DNA of 64,000 nt. Origin: the human T2T-CHM13v2.0 reference genome, Homo sapiens. Shown here piece by piece: positions 1 to 20,321 of this stretch. A model generated the notes under the pieces. That model had not been told where the DNA came from, made no database searches, and saw only the letters and a program-made list of their open reading frames with translations. The stretch lies in the NCBI RefSeq assembly GCF_009914755.1, contig NC_060930.1. One strand, written 5' to 3'. Within the stretch, counting starts at the first letter, position 1. The number at the start of each line of letters is the position of its first letter. The translations under genes were made by a program, and so were the position numbers.

Positions 1-3170
<3,170 letters not shown>

Positions 3171-4189
3171 GACTATAATACTCTTATAAAACATTACTTC
3201 AAAACATACACATCTGTTATTAATATCTACCATCTATTGGGAACTTCTACATAGCTGCATATTCAGAGGGCAGAGTAAGAATCAGTTATTTCTAACAAGG
3301 ACAGGACTGTCAGGAATGACATCACAAAGAAGCTGACATTTAACTGGAGCCCTGAGTGTGATTTTTTAAATAACTCAATAGCCCGAAAGACATAACATTA
3401 ATGTGTTAGGAATCACAACCAATGGAAGGTGAACCAGCAGTAAATACTGTACCTCTCTGGAATCAAGAGTCATTGGCATTTATAGAAATTTAGGAGCACA
3501 TGAAATGCACAGATAATAGGTCTATTTGAAAGCCATTTTCTCTTGCCTTTCCTCATTTCCTCATAATTTTATCTAAAGAAATGTGTGGCCTCTACAAAAT
3601 GGGCCCTTGTGAACCCTCTCTGAAAGGTCTGTCGGCTCTCCAGACCTTGGGTGGCGACAGTCTTTCCCAACAACAGGAGATTGAAATGAACATGTGTAAA
3701 CCATCAAACTCCAACCCTGGCATGGGGAGAGAGGATTGTGTTGTGCCAGAAGCAGCTGAAGTTTTACAGATAGGATTCCCAGGTCAGAAGAGCCAAAGAT
3801 GGAGATTTCAACTTTGCAAAAACTAATATTAGACAAATTCAGCATTTATGGTGCTTTGAACAGAGTAGCCTTGCAAAAATTATTTCTTGAATGAATGAAA
3901 ACTGGAACTGAAAAGAATTCCAGAAGATAACAATGGAAACTAGAATGACTTGGTCATATGTCTCTCTTTTTTTTAATTGAAAATTCGTCATGAATATTTA
4001 GGCCTACTTTTTACATTAAATCTGCTTTAAATTAGAGCTGCTTTTTTTTTTTTTTAAATAAAATCTGAGATAAGACTTTTGTAAAAAGGCTGGGGGCTAC
4101 TCTGGTTAAAGCACAGTAGTACAGCTGGGGTGGGGGAAAGCCGGACCCATCCCTCAGCCCTCCGTCAATGTTCTCTTATCTTTAAAAAC

Positions 4190-4354
4190 TAACCACTCCC
4201 AGCATGGCCCACAGAGCAGCAGCAGCAGCAGCATCTCCCGGGAGTGTGTGAGAAATGCAGCATCTCAGACCTCACCCCAGACCTCCTGAGTCAGAGTCTG
4301 TATTTTGACAGATCCAGGGTGACTCAAATGAACATAAAAATTTGAAAAGCTCTG
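4190..4354. mobile_element. MER5-family hAT MITE
   Basis: agcagcatc...agaaatgcag...accccagacctcctgagtcagagtctg...tttgaaaagctctg. Confidence 0.7.
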
Positions 4355-4901
4355 TTCTCAAGAACTTTCATCCTTGGAGATGTGCAGTGTTTATAAATGA
4401 AAAGATGAACTCTTGGTTGGGGTTATTTTCATTTTAAGATGGGAATAAATTACAGGTAAAATTATTTTCTCAGGAAGTTTATGCAAGGAGAGACCTCATT
4501 ATCAAGCAGCCTCTGCCTAAGATCTGGGCAGGTCAGGTCACCTGCGTTCCACTCGGGCCCTACTGACCTTCTGAGGAGCCATGACACCTTGCTTCTGGCT
4601 GTCATGTGCTGCGCTGGGCTCTGCCTTGAGGGATCCCATACTCTTCCCTGCAATCACAGAGCCCACTTGAGAAGCAGCAGTCCCCCACCTTCCTCCAGGC
4701 CCACCTTCTTCCAGATGCAGTGGACAACCACTACAGGACTTTGACAGGATGTGCATGTCCCTGTCACCAGTGAATTTCTCAATGACTCTGGGCCATCTTT
4801 GGGACGTAGTTAGGAGGCTGGTGAGGAGGTCATACCTAATAAATCCACTTTAATAGTCCCATCTCCCTACGTATGTGTATGCTTCTTTTACAGCATCATA
4901 T

Positions 4902-16158: not shown

Positions 16159-16979
16159 AAGACAAGAAAAGGGAAAGAAAAAAAGCAATATTGGGATTGG
16201 GAAGGAAGAACTTAGTTCACAAATGACATGAATGCTAATGTGGAAAATTTCAAAGAATTGACCAAAAAAAAAAAAAAACAAAAAACCCCACAAACCACCT
16301 GAAACCGATAAATGAGCAAGGTTGCAGAAAACAAGGTTAATACACAAAAGTCAGTTGGGTTTCTACATACTCCAATGAACAATTGGAATTTGAAACACAA
16401 TACTATTTACATACCAAAAAAAACTTTACACATAAATATAATAAAATATTTAAAAGATCTATATGAAAAAAAGTACAAACCTCTGGTGAAAGAAATCAAA
16501 GAATATCTAAATAGAGAGATCTTCCATGTTCATGAATAGGGAGACTCAATATTGTTTAGATGCCAGATCTTTCCAACTCTATCTATAAATTCAACATAAT
16601 TCAAATCAAAATCTCACAAGTTATTCTATGGATACTGAAAAAATAATTTCAATGTTTATATGGAAAGACAAAAGGCTCAGACTAACCAATACGCTCCCCA
16701 ACTTTAAACTTACTGTAAAGCCACAGTAATGAAGATAAGATGATACTGGTAAAATAATCAACAAATTGATCAGTGGAACAGAGTTAAGTGCCCAGAAATA
16801 GATGCTCACAAATAGTCAACTGACAAAGGGGCAAAGGCAACTGAATGGAGAAAGAACAGTCCTTTTGATAATAATATGGGGGTAACTAGACACCCATATC
16901 TTAAAAATGGGAGATAATACCTAAACTAAAATCTTCCCAAAGTTTTAATTACTGGTGTTAAACTTCTTGGAGAGCAATT

Positions 16980-17284
<305 letters not shown>

Positions 17285-18934
17285 AAGGAGAGCAATTTTA
17301 GGAGGAAGGTATGGGGAGTAACCACTGGGCCCCAGGAGTTGTTTTGTTCTGTTTGTGTGTGGTTGTGGGTGGGGCAGCTGGGAAGGAAATGTCAGTGGAA
17401 AAAGGAATGCAGAAATGGATTTTTCTTTGCACCCCATCCTACCAAGCTGCACCTCTGCCTTATCCCTTTCTTCTGATAGCATCTTTTATGACTCCATTTA
17501 TTCCACAAAGCCTCACCCCGCAAAGCTCTTCCTGATATCCTTTCCACCTAGGCAAGCAGGTAAGGTACTGCCCAGCACCCACAATCCTGGAATCCTGTTA
17601 TTGTCCCGACTCAGTCTGACCCGTGGCTGGCTGTGATGCGCTGGGATTCCTCAAGACCCCTTTCTGGGTTGGGTGCAAACCAAGGGTGACTGACTCATGC
17701 TAAGGAGCCTGCACTGCCTTCTCAGAGCACAGCTCTGCCCTCCAGGACTTCACTCTGCTTCTGTTTGGGCAGGGTCTGCCCACTGCTCCTTATCTTGGTG
17801 CCACAGTAGATCTTTGGTATTCAGGTTAATTAATCTCACCCAAGCGTGCCCTTTGCTTCAGAGAAGTATTTCTCACACTTGGCTTTAACAGAACATCAGG
17901 TCCAGGTGCAAAAGGCAACACAAATGAGGTCTATTTATCCACCCACAAAACTGCCTTTCCCTCCAGAAACAGCAGGCTGACAGAGATATCGCCTACTGTC
18001 ATTCTGATTCCTTCAGTCCCGAGGTCATGAATAGTAAAATATGCAAACCAGCCACCCTTGCCTGCCATTGGTCAATAATCTATTACCAAGTAAAATCTTA
18101 CCTGGAGCCTTCCTATCAACCCCACCTGAACAAAGCGCTGCTCTAAACCTTAATTAAACCCACATTGTTCTGGGTGGTGTCTCTCCAGGCAAAGCCGTCC
18201 TTTGAAATTCAGATTCCTTGCACAAATGCATTCTGGCATGACGCTCCCTGTTGCGAGTTTGCTAGTCTAGCTATCCGAGAATAAATTATGCGTTTGTTCC
18301 AGGCTACAGAAAGCTACTGGAAAGTGGATATTCCATTTAGCATTTGTATCACTCAACTCTCTTTACACTGGAAATGGACTCCAATCCACTATTTGCATTT
18401 ATAGATCACAGGGCTAAAACAAAGTTAGTTTTCTCCTCGCAAAGAAAAAAAAAATTCCCTGTAATATTTTAGCTGATGTGACAAATGAGAGAAACCTGGG
18501 GACATGCTGAAGTTTGAAGCTGGTGCTCACTTTCATCATTGCCTGAGTTTTCCCAAGCAGCTTTTGAAGAGTGAGGAACTAAGTTTTCTTAGAAGAGTAA
18601 ATGTCTCACAGAGGGGTCACCCTTATACCTTGGATGTTGAAACTTTGTACTTCTGGAACTAAAGCAGTTACCACGGTGCTGGGCATTGGGGGTAGGGCTA
18701 AGGCGTTCTAACCTCAGGAGGGCTAACAGTTCGGGGACACTCTTTATATCTTTGGCGACCCCATTTTTTTCAAGCCCAAAATGAGGCCAGGTGATCTGGC
18801 AAGTTTTGTGTTTCTAACATTGTGACAAACCCCAAAATGATATTGCATCATGGAAAAACTCCTAGGCCCAGGCAACTGGGACCCCTGGGCTAGGCCCCAC
18901 ACTTTGGGGGGCCCATCTGGCCTTTTCCAGCCGC

Positions 18935-19054
18935 GTCTACGGCCATACCACCCTGAACGCGCCCGATCTCGTCTGATCTCGGAAGCTAAGCAGGGTCGGG
19001 CCTGGTTAGTACTTGGATGGGAGACAGCCTGGGAATACCGGGTGCTGTAGGCTT
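18935..19054 (+). pseudogene. Full-length dispersed 5S rRNA copy (RNA5SP-type), 120 nt, with one substitution (C92A) relative to the human 5S sequence as I recall it
   Basis: GTCTACGGCCATACCACCCTGAACGCGCCCGATCTCG...GGGAGACaGCCTGGGAATACCGGGTGCTGTAGGCTT. Single copy, without 5S-array spacer sequence and without an immediate T4 terminator. Confidence 0.97.
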
Positions 19055-19517
19055 ACTTTGTGTCTGACCCATGTTTCCCCGAGACAAAACACCAAGCTCA
19101 CACCACACTCACACCACAAAACAAAGAACGGGTAAAAAAGGCACACACACACTTTTTCAGTTTACACCAAACCAGAATCAAAACCAAAATCAGAGTATCC
19201 AGAAATCCAAGCCAGGTCAAAACCAAAACCAAAGTATCAAGCAATTCAAGTCAAGTCAAAAACAAAAACCAAAGTGCCAGTACAGGCACGCCGTGGGTGA
19301 TCAGGCCACGCTTCCACTCAAATGGAGTGGGCAAGTTCCAAAGACCAGTCTTACCAAGTTTCAGATGTCCGGACTCCAAGTGCCAGTTCCTTCCCGGTGT
19401 TCAGCCACTGCATTGATCCTCCACGTGGGCCTGCCACGCGCTGCTCTGACGAGGCTTTCCACGGGGGCAATTGCCTACCCGGGAGCGTTCTCAGGATCCG
19501 CGTCACTCAAGCTGGCC
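19050..19517 (-). mobile_element. HERV-E-like internal fragment (5' leader through the gag start codon), without LTR or PBS
   Basis: Minus strand reads ggccagcttgagtgacgcggatcctgag...aaacttgGTAAGAC (splice-donor-like)...T/G-rich leader...ATG GGT CAG ACA CAA AGT AAG CC (MGQTQSKP, a myristoylation-type gag start at 19072). Confidence 0.8.
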
Positions 19518-19589
19518 AAATAACTCTTCGGCCAGTTCTCCCTTGCACGGCAGCAGCACAGTGAGAATGTTCATCACAGAATTTATTCA

Positions 19590-19920
19590 GTCTCAGGGCT
19601 GTGTTTCTCCAGGTGTGGACTTCAGAATACCACCAGGTCAGAACCACCTGGGGCCGTCTCCAGACCTACTGAGTTAGAATCCCTAGTCAGTGGCTCGCAG
19701 ACCAGGGGCTGCAGACCAGCAGCATGAGCATCACCTGGGAACGTGTTAGGAACAGGCTCTAATTCTCAGGCCCCACCCCAGACCTTTTGAATCAGAAATT
19801 CTGGGTGTGGCACCTGGAAACGTGCTTCACCAGCCTCCAGGGGATTCTGATGCAGAGCAGTGGCCAGGGGTCAGCCCCAGCAATTTCAAGGAGCTCCCCA
19901 GGTGCTTCTGACACATGGGT
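19590..19920. mobile_element. Nested MER5A/MER5B MITEs
   Basis: cagtggctcgcag...accagcagcatgagcatcacctgggaacgtgttagg...ccccaccccagaccttttgaatcagaaattctggg. Confidence 0.7.
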
Positions 19921-20321
19921 AAACTGAAAAAAAGGAGAAATTAGGGGGGAAACAAACAGAAAGTCCCAGGACTCAACAGAATCTGACTTGGGATTTATGA
20001 GACATGCTCTGGGTCCACAGCCCCCTTCAGGGTCTTGGCCCTGACCTTGTCTCGTTCTTCCCTACCTTCACACGTGAGATGCTACTGTTAACACTCTAAT
20101 AACAATCGATGCTTTTAAAACTGCGACCCTTTAGGTCCACCCCAGGAAAGACCAATCCCTTGCTTATACCTAACTGTGGCCTGCCCTCTTTGTTCTGTTA
20201 CTTTCTGATTATAAGTCTCTTCCCTGATAGATGATTCTGGAGAGAAAACAGTATTGGAGGCTGTTGATTGGAAAAGTAGCTCCTAATACCATCTTTGCAT
20301 GAGCTCTCTGGAATAGCCAAA

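What the first reader, a model, noticed from the sequence alone, without database searches (positions are those of the whole stretch)
18935..19517. 5S rRNA fused to an antisense HERV-E leader/gag start: apparent fossil of 5S-primed retroviral reverse transcription
Seen in the sequence: a complete 5S (nt 1-120, one substitution) runs without spacer into about 465 nt that read on the minus strand as an ERV leader ending in ATG GGT CAG ACA CAA AGT AAG CC. The last bases of 5S (GTAGGCTT) read on the minus strand as AAG CCT AC, continuing the frame as K-P-T (MGQTQSKPT). There is no poly(A), TSD, LTR or PBS. The piece keeps a splice-donor-like TTG/GTAAGA (19348-19358) plus downstream leader, which points to unspliced genomic RNA. 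The right junction has a small fold-back (ctggcc-12 nt-ggccag). Established: L1-made small-RNA chimeras (U6/L1 type) have a SENSE, polyadenylated 3' partner and TSDs, and retroviral minus-strand cDNA is primer RNA followed by antisense viral sequence. Inference: the 5S 3' end annealed to HERV-E RNA just inside gag and primed RT toward the viral 5' end. The second strand then copied through the whole primer, since 5S lacks the tRNA m1A58 stop, and the cDNA was captured at a break. The HERV-E assignment and the K-P-T continuation in gag are from memory.
Basis: partly seen in the sequence, partly recalled or inferred. Interest (0 to 1): 0.88.

Follow-up and report, generated by a model that had tools for sequence, protein, structure and literature searches.

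The report
5S copy fused to HERV-E fragment
A complete copy of 5S ribosomal RNA is joined, through eight shared bases, to a backwards 470-base scrap of the ancient retrovirus HERV-E, most likely a one-off by-product of reverse transcription that was patched into the chromosome roughly 10-20 million years ago.

Summary
Window 18935-19054 (+) is 5S rRNA nt 1-120 with one substitution. It overlaps by 8 nt a 471-nt remnant (19047-19517, minus strand) of a retroviral leader plus the first few codons of gag. The remnant is 93-95% identical to proviral copies elsewhere.

The family is HERV-E, a gamma-like class I group:
- Kin carry a tRNA-Glu primer-binding site.
- One kin is the published HERV-E.FABP7.
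- RefSeq ERVE-5 matches at 82%.
- Kin pol is closest to MLV-type RT.

The remnant has no LTR, primer-binding site, poly(A) or target-site duplication. No other proviral piece lies in the 64 kb. It is single-copy.

Age is roughly 10-20 My (limits 5-25), from branch lengths only. No primate orthologues could be read.

The junction geometry fits a reverse transcriptase polymerising across a 5S-3'-end/HERV-E pairing, with the product captured by end joining. The remnant is old, tiny and non-coding, so nothing needs referral on safety grounds.

The parts
18935..19054 (+). RNA-derived copy of 5S rRNA, nt 1-120 (RefSeq RNA5SP202, annotated 18935-19053)
   Evidence: Rfam 5S_rRNA scores 107.8 bits over the full model. 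It matches RNA5S1 at 119 of 120 positions. The upstream flank is unlike the 5S gene flank (732 of 2000 shuffles reach the score), so the copy starts at RNA position +1.
19047..19054 (.). Junction overlap. These 8 nt are 5S nt 113-120 and are also the continuation of the retroviral sequence as seen in kin.
   Evidence: BLAST homology of 9 of 9 kin reaches 19047. The run is 8 nt in 5 of 9 kin and 4-5 nt in 4 of 9. In 19,173 nt of kin sense strand, the only sites fully complementary to 5S nt 113-120 are the 5 at this place.
19047..19517 (-). HERV-E remnant as a whole: part of the leader, starting about 80 nt after the end of the primer-binding site of kin, plus the first few codons of gag. No complete gene is present.
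   Evidence: 38 genomic kin at 91-95% identity. 93.4-94.7% identity over 470-472 nt to nine fetched kin. The remnant starts 97-101 nt after the start of the kin's primer-binding site. ERVE-5 matches at 82%.
18535..18934 (.). Left flank: unique host DNA, not retroviral
   Evidence: Only the self-match in the whole genome. No match to the kin's gag, LTR or pol.
19518..19557 (.). Right flank: host DNA that starts with an A-rich hexamer. No poly(A) and no target-site duplication with the left flank.
   Evidence: The longest repeat shared by the flanks is 4 nt (1993 of 2000 shuffles reach it), and the longest A or T run is 3-4.
19512..19535 (+).
   Evidence: Present, but 505 of 20000 random positions in the window have an equivalent stem. 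The sequence after the stem does not mirror the remnant (one search lists no such inverted repeat).

Best explanation
What it is: a single hybrid reverse-transcription product fixed in the genome.

Step 1 (strongly inferred from sequence). The 3' end of a mature 5S rRNA (nt 113-120) was base-paired with the sense strand of a HERV-E genome a few codons into gag. A reverse transcriptase polymerised across that pairing.

Step 2 (the mechanism I commit to; inferred). 5S RNA, a host RNA known to be packaged in gammaretroviral particles, acted as a stray primer on unspliced HERV-E genomic RNA. Minus-strand DNA was made toward the viral 5' end. A second strand then started inside the leader and ran back through the junction. 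Because 5S lacks the modified base that halts copying of a tRNA primer (established knowledge, recalled), it copied the whole 5S and ran off its 5' end. This explains why the insert is bounded exactly at 5S nt 1.

Step 3 (inferred from what is absent). The product of about 585 nt was put into a chromosome break by end joining. It was not integrated by integrase, since there are no LTR ends. It was not inserted by classical L1 target-primed reverse transcription, since there is no poly(A) and no target-site duplication.

My odds: steps 1 and 3 together about 0.75. Step 2 as stated (5S as primer, retroviral enzyme) about 0.4.

The remnant has no function as a virus. It holds no complete gene, no LTR and no primer-binding site.
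For: - The 5S copy is complete and RNA-bounded.
- The partner is antisense HERV-E leader plus gag start, which is contiguous only in unspliced RNA or DNA. The splice-donor-like hexamer is retained, as in 12 of 12 kin.
- The junction overlap is 8 nt in 5 of 9 kin and chance-level beyond.
- That 8-mer site is the only one in 19,173 nt of kin sense strand. The computed duplex energy is -10.7 kcal/mol.
- No other piece of the virus lies in the 64 kb: LTR part, primer-binding site and first ~490 nt of gag, and 2 x 3 kb of pol by blastn and tblastx.
- There is no target-site duplication or poly(A).
- The chimera is single-copy. The best other leader is 95% identical, and 0 of 38 kin have an annotated 5S within 20 kb, out of 526 annotated 5S genes and pseudogenes.
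- Both halves show similarly low private divergence: 1 of 120 for the 5S, and a 1.9% terminal branch for the remnant. This fits one event.
- Literature: 5S rRNA is among the host RNAs in MLV particles, packaged host RNAs can be reverse-transcribed or patched into products via microhomology, and retroviruses have been suggested as makers of small-RNA pseudogenes (PMC4997597, passages; PMC2175372, passages).
Against: - This is one locus only, and no orthologous empty site could be read, so joint arrival is inferred, not shown.
- The sequence is equally produced if 5S was the acceptor template rather than the primer.
- Eight base pairs is far fewer than the 18 of a tRNA primer. In 4 of 9 kin, including two of the three nearest in the tree, the site has one mismatch. 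The source may therefore have paired at only 7 of 8.
- In the predicted 5S fold the 3' end is buried in the terminal helix, so a chaperone has to be assumed.
- The antisense stretch stops about 80 nt short of the primer-binding site instead of reaching the viral 5' end. No feature explains that stop.
- The right flank begins with an A-rich hexamer, which on the other strand is a T-rich 3' end not unlike an L1 nicking site. An L1 enzyme is therefore not excluded.
- Nothing identifies the polymerase.
Confidence: 0.45

Rival explanations
1. Template switch. A nascent sense-strand HERV-E DNA, whose 3' end lay a few codons into gag, annealed to the 3' end of 5S RNA and was extended to the 5' end of 5S. 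That DNA could be a retroviral plus strand copied from minus-strand DNA, or a cDNA made by L1 ORF2p on an antisense transcript. The product was then captured. 5S is the acceptor template here, not the primer.
For: It gives exactly the same sequence, the same 8-nt overlap and the same run-off at 5S nt 1. Microhomology-guided switching onto co-packaged host RNAs is documented for retroviruses (PMC4997597 passages). L1 forms chimeras with 5S, often antisense (bioRxiv 2025.02.02.635956 passages). The minus strand of the right flank ends T-rich at the junction.
Against: The L1 version needs an antisense HERV-E RNA ending inside the leader with no poly(A), and there is no target-site duplication. 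Published antisense 5S/L1 chimeras have a truncated 5S with its start at the junction, the opposite of this case. The retroviral plus-strand version needs an internal start and a stall exactly at the 8-mer.
Confidence: 0.25
2. DNA-level joining. Separate DNA pieces, a 5S cDNA and a fragment of HERV-E DNA or cDNA, were stitched into a break by microhomology-mediated end joining that used the 8 shared bases.
For: The 8-nt overlap lies at the very end of one partner, as in microhomology joining. There is no target-site duplication or poly(A). Endonuclease-independent, repair-linked retro-insertions are known in the human genome (PMC1920257 abstract).
Against: It needs two free retro-derived fragments at one break, with the viral fragment resected exactly to the only 8-mer site in more than 19 kb. 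No microhomology was found at the two outer junctions: scores were reached by 1501-4566 of 5000 shuffles, and 332 of 5000 for the best one.
Confidence: 0.1
3. Pre-existing provirus. A HERV-E provirus sat here, a nick or break just inside gag primed reverse transcription of 5S RNA through the 8-nt match, and the rest of the provirus was lost by deletions on both sides.
For: It would also give the 8-nt overlap and the complete 5S.
Against: No LTR part, primer-binding site, further gag or pol is anywhere in the 64 kb. The left flank is unique host DNA. The model needs two separate large deletions with one edge inside the leader.
Confidence: 0.07
4. Classical L1-made chimeric retrocopy of the U6/L1 kind, or two unrelated insertions lying side by side by chance.
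For: A full-length small RNA on the 5' side is typical of U6/L1 chimeras (passages).
Against: The partner is antisense, with no poly(A) and no target-site duplication. A chance overlap of 8 nt or more has probability about 2e-5 per junction, so about 0.005 expected over the ~500 annotated 5S pseudogenes (arithmetic).
Confidence: 0.05

Closest known systems
L1-mediated chimeric retrocopies (U6/L1, 5S/L1 and similar)
   Same: A host small RNA is fused to a retroelement sequence in a single reverse-transcription event. The small RNA can be full-length because the enzyme runs off its 5' end. 5S is a known partner and is often antisense to L1 (passages).
   Different: The partner here is an LTR retrovirus, not L1. 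The 5S 3' end, not its start, lies at the junction, with 8 nt of complementarity. There is no poly(A) and no target-site duplication.
Retroviral primer-linked DNA (minus-strand strong-stop DNA, and the plus-strand copy of the primer's 3' end)
   Same: Primer RNA sequence is followed by antisense viral sequence. The primer's 3' end is complementary to the viral RNA at the junction. The second strand copies into the primer.
   Different: The primer would be 5S, not tRNA-Glu. The site lies in gag, not at the primer-binding site. There are 8 paired bases, not 18. The whole primer is copied. The DNA stops about 80 nt before the primer-binding site instead of reaching the 5' end. This textbook scheme is recalled, not taken from a call.
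Retroviral non-homologous recombination or 'patch repair' with co-packaged host RNAs, including a recombinant containing 7SL
   Same: Host Pol III RNAs inside particles take part in reverse transcription through short fortuitous homologies (PMC4997597 passages).
   Different: Those products are viral genomes that carry a host patch and are integrated with LTRs. This is an orphan fragment without LTRs.
Endonuclease-independent L1 insertions and cDNA capture at double-strand breaks
   Same: A retro-derived insert without target-site duplication or poly(A), interpreted as break repair (PMC1920257 abstract).
   Different: The content is 5S plus HERV-E, not L1. Target deletion, a usual companion, could not be tested here.
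LTR retroelements carrying 5S sequence (plant Cassandra elements) and 5S-derived SINEs
   Same: 5S sequence is physically combined with a retroelement (PMC7215508 and the SINE papers, seen only in the listing and in reference passages; otherwise recalled).
   Different: Those are amplified families with 5S as a promoter module. This is a single, dead copy.

Membership tests
5S rRNA retro-pseudogene | Matches the 5S covariance model above the curated threshold | tested here: met
   107.8 bits against a gathering score of 38, over model positions 1-120.
5S rRNA retro-pseudogene | Bounded by the ends of the RNA and lacking the gene's flanks | tested here: met
   Identity to RNA5S1 covers nt 1-120. 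The upstream flanks are unrelated: 732 of 2000 shuffles reach the score.
HERV-E (class I, gamma-like endogenous retrovirus) | Sequence kinship with loci publicly named HERV-E | tested here: met
   82% identity to the 5' part of RefSeq ERVE-5. 93.9% identity to L004, which by position is the published HERV-E.FABP7.
HERV-E (class I, gamma-like endogenous retrovirus) | Primer-binding site complementary to the tRNA-Glu 3' end | tested here: met
   Met in kin: 18 of 18 in 4 of 9 kin and 16-17 of 18 in 5 of 9, against TRE-CTC1-1. The remnant itself lacks the site (best 11-12 of 18), so membership rests on kinship.
HERV-E (class I, gamma-like endogenous retrovirus) | Gammaretrovirus-like pol | tested here: met
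   Pfam finds RVT_1, RNase H and the integrase zinc domain in a kin pol piece. The best solved structures are MLV/XMRV-type RT at E 2e-150, against foamy virus at 1e-35 and HIV-1 at about 1e-13.
HERV-E (class I, gamma-like endogenous retrovirus) | LTR2, LTR2B or LTR2C long terminal repeats | not testable with these tools
   No repeat library was on hand and the remnant has no LTR. Kin show two LTR types.
Classical L1 chimeric retrocopy (U6/L1 type) | 3' partner in sense orientation ending in poly(A) | tested here: not met
   The partner is antisense. The longest A or T run at the junctions is 3-4.
Classical L1 chimeric retrocopy (U6/L1 type) | Target-site duplication of about 7-20 nt | tested here: not met
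   The longest repeat shared by the flanks is 4 nt, reached by 1993 of 2000 shuffles. No near-duplication abuts the junctions.
Classical L1 chimeric retrocopy (U6/L1 type) | L1 endonuclease-like target site | tested here: inconclusive
   The right flank starts with an A-rich hexamer. Without the empty site the nick position is unknown.
Antisense 5S/L1 chimera (twin-priming type) | 5S truncated, with its start at the junction, and an L1 3' end as partner | tested here: not met
   The 5S is complete and its 3' end is at the junction. The partner is HERV-E. The definition comes passages.
Integrase-made provirus or solo LTR | LTR ends flanked by a short duplication | tested here: not met
   No LTR sequence in the 64 kb and no duplication.
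Endonuclease-independent / break-repair retro-insertion | No target-site duplication, no poly(A), often a target deletion | tested here: inconclusive
   The first two features are met. Deletion is untestable: no primate genomes were available and there is no paralogous empty site.
Primer-linked retroviral cDNA | Primer 3' end complementary to viral RNA at the junction, followed by antisense viral DNA | tested here: met
   8-nt overlap in 5 of 9 kin, at a site unique in 19.2 kb.
Primer-linked retroviral cDNA | cDNA runs to the 5' end of the viral RNA | tested here: not met
   It stops 97-101 nt downstream of the start of the kin's primer-binding site.

The most novel reading that the evidence does not exclude
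This locus is a germ-line fossil of a host RNA other than tRNA, 5S rRNA, acting as primer for retroviral minus-strand synthesis on HERV-E genomic RNA. The second strand copied the entire unmodified primer. This would be a natural record that small RNAs packaged in particles can start reverse transcription at fortuitous 8-nt sites, and that such orphan products reach the germ-line genome without integrase.
Probability: 0.35. Interest if true: 0.8.

Novelty: new variant of a known kind. Interest (0 to 1): 0.58.

Why it matters
Chimeric retrocopies are normally credited to L1. Here the partner, the orientation and the 3'-terminal complementarity point to a pairing between a packaged host RNA and a retroviral genome.

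If a census finds more such junctions, it would give a sequence-level handle on three old questions:
- What the non-primer host RNAs in retroviral particles can do.
- Whether retroviral enzymes contributed to small-RNA pseudogenes.
- How composite elements with a small-RNA head arise.

Practically, it explains why RNA5SP202 has an unusual 3' neighbour. It also names, bounds and roughly dates an otherwise unannotated HERV-E scrap.

Tried and rejected
(1) 5S inserted into a provirus. I looked for viral sequence left of the 5S. I read three minus-strand frames of 19080-17300. I ran BLAST of nine kin with 500-nt flanks against 18300-20100 and against the whole window. I ran two 3-kb pol regions by blastn and tblastx. 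Nothing was found, so this is rejected.

(2) DNA-level copy of a 5S gene. The upstream flanks are unrelated. Rejected.

(3) Target-site duplication or poly(A). None was found.

(4) Hairpin self-priming at the right end. A 6-bp stem is present, but 2.5% of random positions have one and no mirrored sequence follows it. It remains weak evidence only.

(5) A 5S-like stretch in the right flank. It matches 14 of 19 positions, but 332 of 5000 shuffles reach its score, so it is not significant.

(6) Empty-site paralogue. The left flank is unique in the genome, so there is no information.

(7) The table of masked repeats carries no family names and masks only 19109-19280 here. It was not useful.

(8) Prior description. 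Searches found none for this locus or for a 5S/antisense-ERV junction. RNA5SP202 appears in 10 papers, judged from their titles to be expression studies. Supplements are closed. Supplementary Table 2 of the 2025 preprint (253 chimeras) could bear on this claim.

(9) Caps. Both genome searches and both cuts are spent. Only 39 of 232 candidates were scored, and 12 kin leaders were compared. A nearer kin or the source copy may therefore exist unseen. The scan of viral contigs was not used, because it leaves out human-like records.
Full report
**The observation**

Rfam finds a full-length 5S rRNA at window 18935-19053 on the + strand: 107.8 bits against a gathering score of 38, over model positions 1-120.

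I cut the host gene RNA5S1 from the same genome. Against it the copy is identical at 119 of 120 positions, and nt 121 is not shared. The one difference is at 5S position 92, and 8 of 9 CpG sites are intact.

The 50 nt upstream do not resemble the gene's upstream flank: 732 of 2000 shuffles reach the observed local score. The copy is therefore bounded at +1 of the RNA, which marks it as RNA-derived.

**What lies to the right of the 5S**

I searched the whole reference with the minus strand of 19054-19560. This gave 38 further places at 91-95% identity, all covering the same query span (232 candidates, 39 scored).

Nine of them were saved with 500-nt flanks. In 9 of 9, local BLAST places the homology from 19516-19518 down to 19047, at 93.4-94.7% identity over 470-472 nt. 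The homology therefore runs 8 nt into the 5S.

Counting from 19054 into the 5S:
- The run of identity is 8 nt in 5 of 9 kin.
- It is 4-5 nt, with one mismatch, in 4 of 9 kin.
- The next 30 positions show 8-11 identities, against 7.5 expected by chance.

The mismatches sit at two different places. One of them is private to one member of a recently duplicated quartet of kin, so at least some arose after integration.

In 19,173 nt of kin sense strand (LTR part, leader, gag 5' part, 2 x 3 kb of pol), the only sites fully complementary to 5S nt 113-120 are the 5 at this very place. About 0.3 would be expected by chance.

A random junction would show an overlap of 8 nt or more with probability about 2e-5. 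That gives roughly 0.005 expected over all of the roughly 500 annotated 5S pseudogenes (arithmetic).

**What is absent**

Nothing else from the nine kin loci matches anywhere in the 64-kb window. Those loci cover about 400 nt of LTR, the primer-binding site, the first 100 nt of leader and the first ~490 nt of gag.

Two 3-kb pol regions of kin also find nothing, by blastn or tblastx at E<=1e-3.

- The best match to an 18-nt tRNA-Glu primer-binding site in 18500-20100 is 11-12 of 18.
- The flanks share no direct repeat longer than 4 nt, a length reached by 1993 of 2000 shuffles. No near-duplication abuts the junctions, and no A or T run exceeds 4.
- The left flank is unique in the genome.
- None of the 38 kin has one of the 526 annotated 5S genes or pseudogenes within 20 kb, and no kin exceeds 95% identity.

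The chimera is therefore single-copy and has no visible source locus.

**Family**

- Kin carry, 97-101 nt upstream of the point where the window's piece begins, the complement of the 3' end of tRNA-Glu(CTC). The match is 18 of 18 in 4 of 9 kin and 16-17 of 18 in 5 of 9, tested against the host gene TRE-CTC1-1.
- The only RefSeq gene in the table named for group E, ERVE-5, matches the remnant at 82.2% over 286 nt and 88.5% over 26 nt. Between those two blocks lies a longer repeat-rich stretch.
- Kin L004 lies 499 nt from the annotated start of FABP7, on the opposite strand. This corresponds to HERV-E.FABP7 in Table 1 of PMC4379568. The table gives it as LTR2 subgroup, LTR divergence 9.0%, 30 My, and more than 25 My by primate alignments (passages). 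This identification is by position.
- A stop-free pol stretch of one kin has Pfam RVT_1, RNase H and integrase zinc domains. It matches MLV/XMRV-type reverse transcriptases at E 2e-150, against about 1e-35 for foamy virus and about 1e-13 for HIV-1.

The remnant is thus HERV-E, a class I gamma-like group.

The remnant holds part of the leader and a few codons of gag. It has no complete gene, no envelope and no LTR. It is neither young nor near whole.

**Age**

Pairwise differences:
- Window to kin: 5.3-6.7% (25-31 differences in 461-472 sites).
- Kin to kin: mean 6.2%, range 1.9-9.3%.

Neighbour-joining terminal branches:
- Window, with 12 kin: 1.9%, bootstrap 0.8-3.1%.
- Window, with nine kin: 1.7%.
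- Kin outside the near-identical quartet L007-L010: 1.5-3.5%.
- Window at columns never CpG: 1.0%, within the kin range of 0.5-2.0%.

The 5S half has 1 change in 120.

The rate used in PMC4379568 is 0.3% per My between LTR pairs, or 0.15% per lineage (passages). At that rate the remnant's branch gives about 12 My (5-20). An illustrative pooled count of 9 changes in 592 nt gives 10 My (5-19).

The same clock gives HERV-E.FABP7 only 19-31 My (branch 2.8-4.7%), against more than 25 My by orthology. The clock therefore tends to run low.

I put the event at roughly 10-20 My, with limits of 5-25 My. That falls inside the period of HERV-E activity described in that review: waves after about 45 My and from about 25 My.

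This estimate is weak. Only primate orthologues, which no tool here reaches, can date the event properly.

**Mechanism**

Read 5' to 3', the + strand is 5S in sense followed by antisense virus. On sense RNAs only two polymerisations can produce this layout:
- The 5S 3' end is extended along viral RNA.
- A sense viral DNA 3' end is extended along 5S RNA.

Both pass through the same 8-nt pairing. The pairing has a computed duplex energy of -10.7 kcal/mol, and the 5S 3' end is otherwise buried in its terminal helix.

Neither flank can have primed on a sense RNA, which sets this locus apart from L1 target-primed and twin-primed products.

The fixed molecule is best explained as the second strand. 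It would have started inside the leader, crossed the junction and run off the 5' end of 5S. That accounts for the exact boundary at 5S nt 1.

Support from papers:
- 5S rRNA is listed among host RNAs in MLV particles.
- Packaged host RNAs can be reverse-transcribed or recombine through fortuitous microhomology.
- Retroviruses have been suggested as possible makers of small-RNA pseudogenes.

These points come from PMC4997597 (passages) and PMC2175372 (passages).

Insertion by end joining is inferred from the missing hallmarks. It parallels endonuclease-independent L1 insertions (PMC1920257, abstract).

**Evidence against, and open points**

- The sequence cannot tell primer from acceptor template, nor the retroviral enzyme from L1 ORF2p.
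- The antisense stretch stops about 80 nt short of the primer-binding site with no evident cause.
- The source may have paired at 7 of 8 positions.
- The right flank starts with an A-rich hexamer.
- A 2025 preprint shows that antisense 5S/L1 chimeras are common, though with truncated 5S, the 5S start at the junction, and target-site duplications in 6 of 8 loci checked (passages).
- The fold-back at the right junction occurs at 505 of 20000 random positions and adds little.

**Novelty**

Seven literature searches found no description of this locus or of a small-RNA/antisense-ERV junction of this geometry. Supplements were closed.

I rate it a new variant of a known kind, namely chimeric retro-sequences made by priming or template switching. 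It rests on a single locus.

Noticed in passing
window 19178-19275 (also 19089-19118): The leader remnant holds a 39-nt tandem repeat of 2.5 copies, plus shorter repeats. In ERVE-5 the stretch between the two conserved blocks is about 120 nt longer, so this part of the HERV-E leader varies in length between subgroups.
   Followed up: partly
L007-L010 (chr11 x3, chr12) versus L002-L006; chr8 7.5-12.8 Mb hits: Four kin differ from each other by only about 2%. Upstream of the primer-binding site they carry an LTR that does not match the ERVE-5 LTR, unlike L002-L006. Five further hits cluster in chr8 7.5-12.8 Mb. These look like copies spread by segmental duplication rather than by infection.
   Followed up: no
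window 19525-19543: The right flank, 8 nt beyond the remnant, resembles 5S nt 2-20 at 14 of 19 positions. 332 of 5000 shuffles reach the score, so it is probably chance. An empty site would settle it.
   Followed up: yes
window 18935-19157: The 5S copy is almost intact, and the first run of four or more T on its strand comes 219 nt from +1. If the copy is transcribed by Pol III, the RNA would carry about 100 nt antisense to the HERV-E gag start and leader. RNA5SP202 is named in 10 papers, by their titles expression studies (listing only).
   Followed up: no
kin L006 (chr8:31008637-31009098) and L004 (chr6:123936524-123936988); chr7:7069614-7079212: The RefSeq start of UBXN8 lies about 50 nt from the L006 leader, and the RefSeq start of FABP7 lies 499 nt from L004. 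The host gene models therefore begin in or beside HERV-E 5' ends. FABP7 is a published case. An 'uncharacterized protein-coding' RefSeq model, LOC112267992, overlaps another kin.
   Followed up: no
window 16971-17290 and about 19630-19880: There is an Alu on the minus strand (two Rfam SRP-model hits below threshold; masked). Right of the remnant is a stretch that I recall as a MER5-type DNA transposon; that name comes from memory, not from a call. It overlaps the first exon of lncRNA LOC105374894.
   Followed up: no
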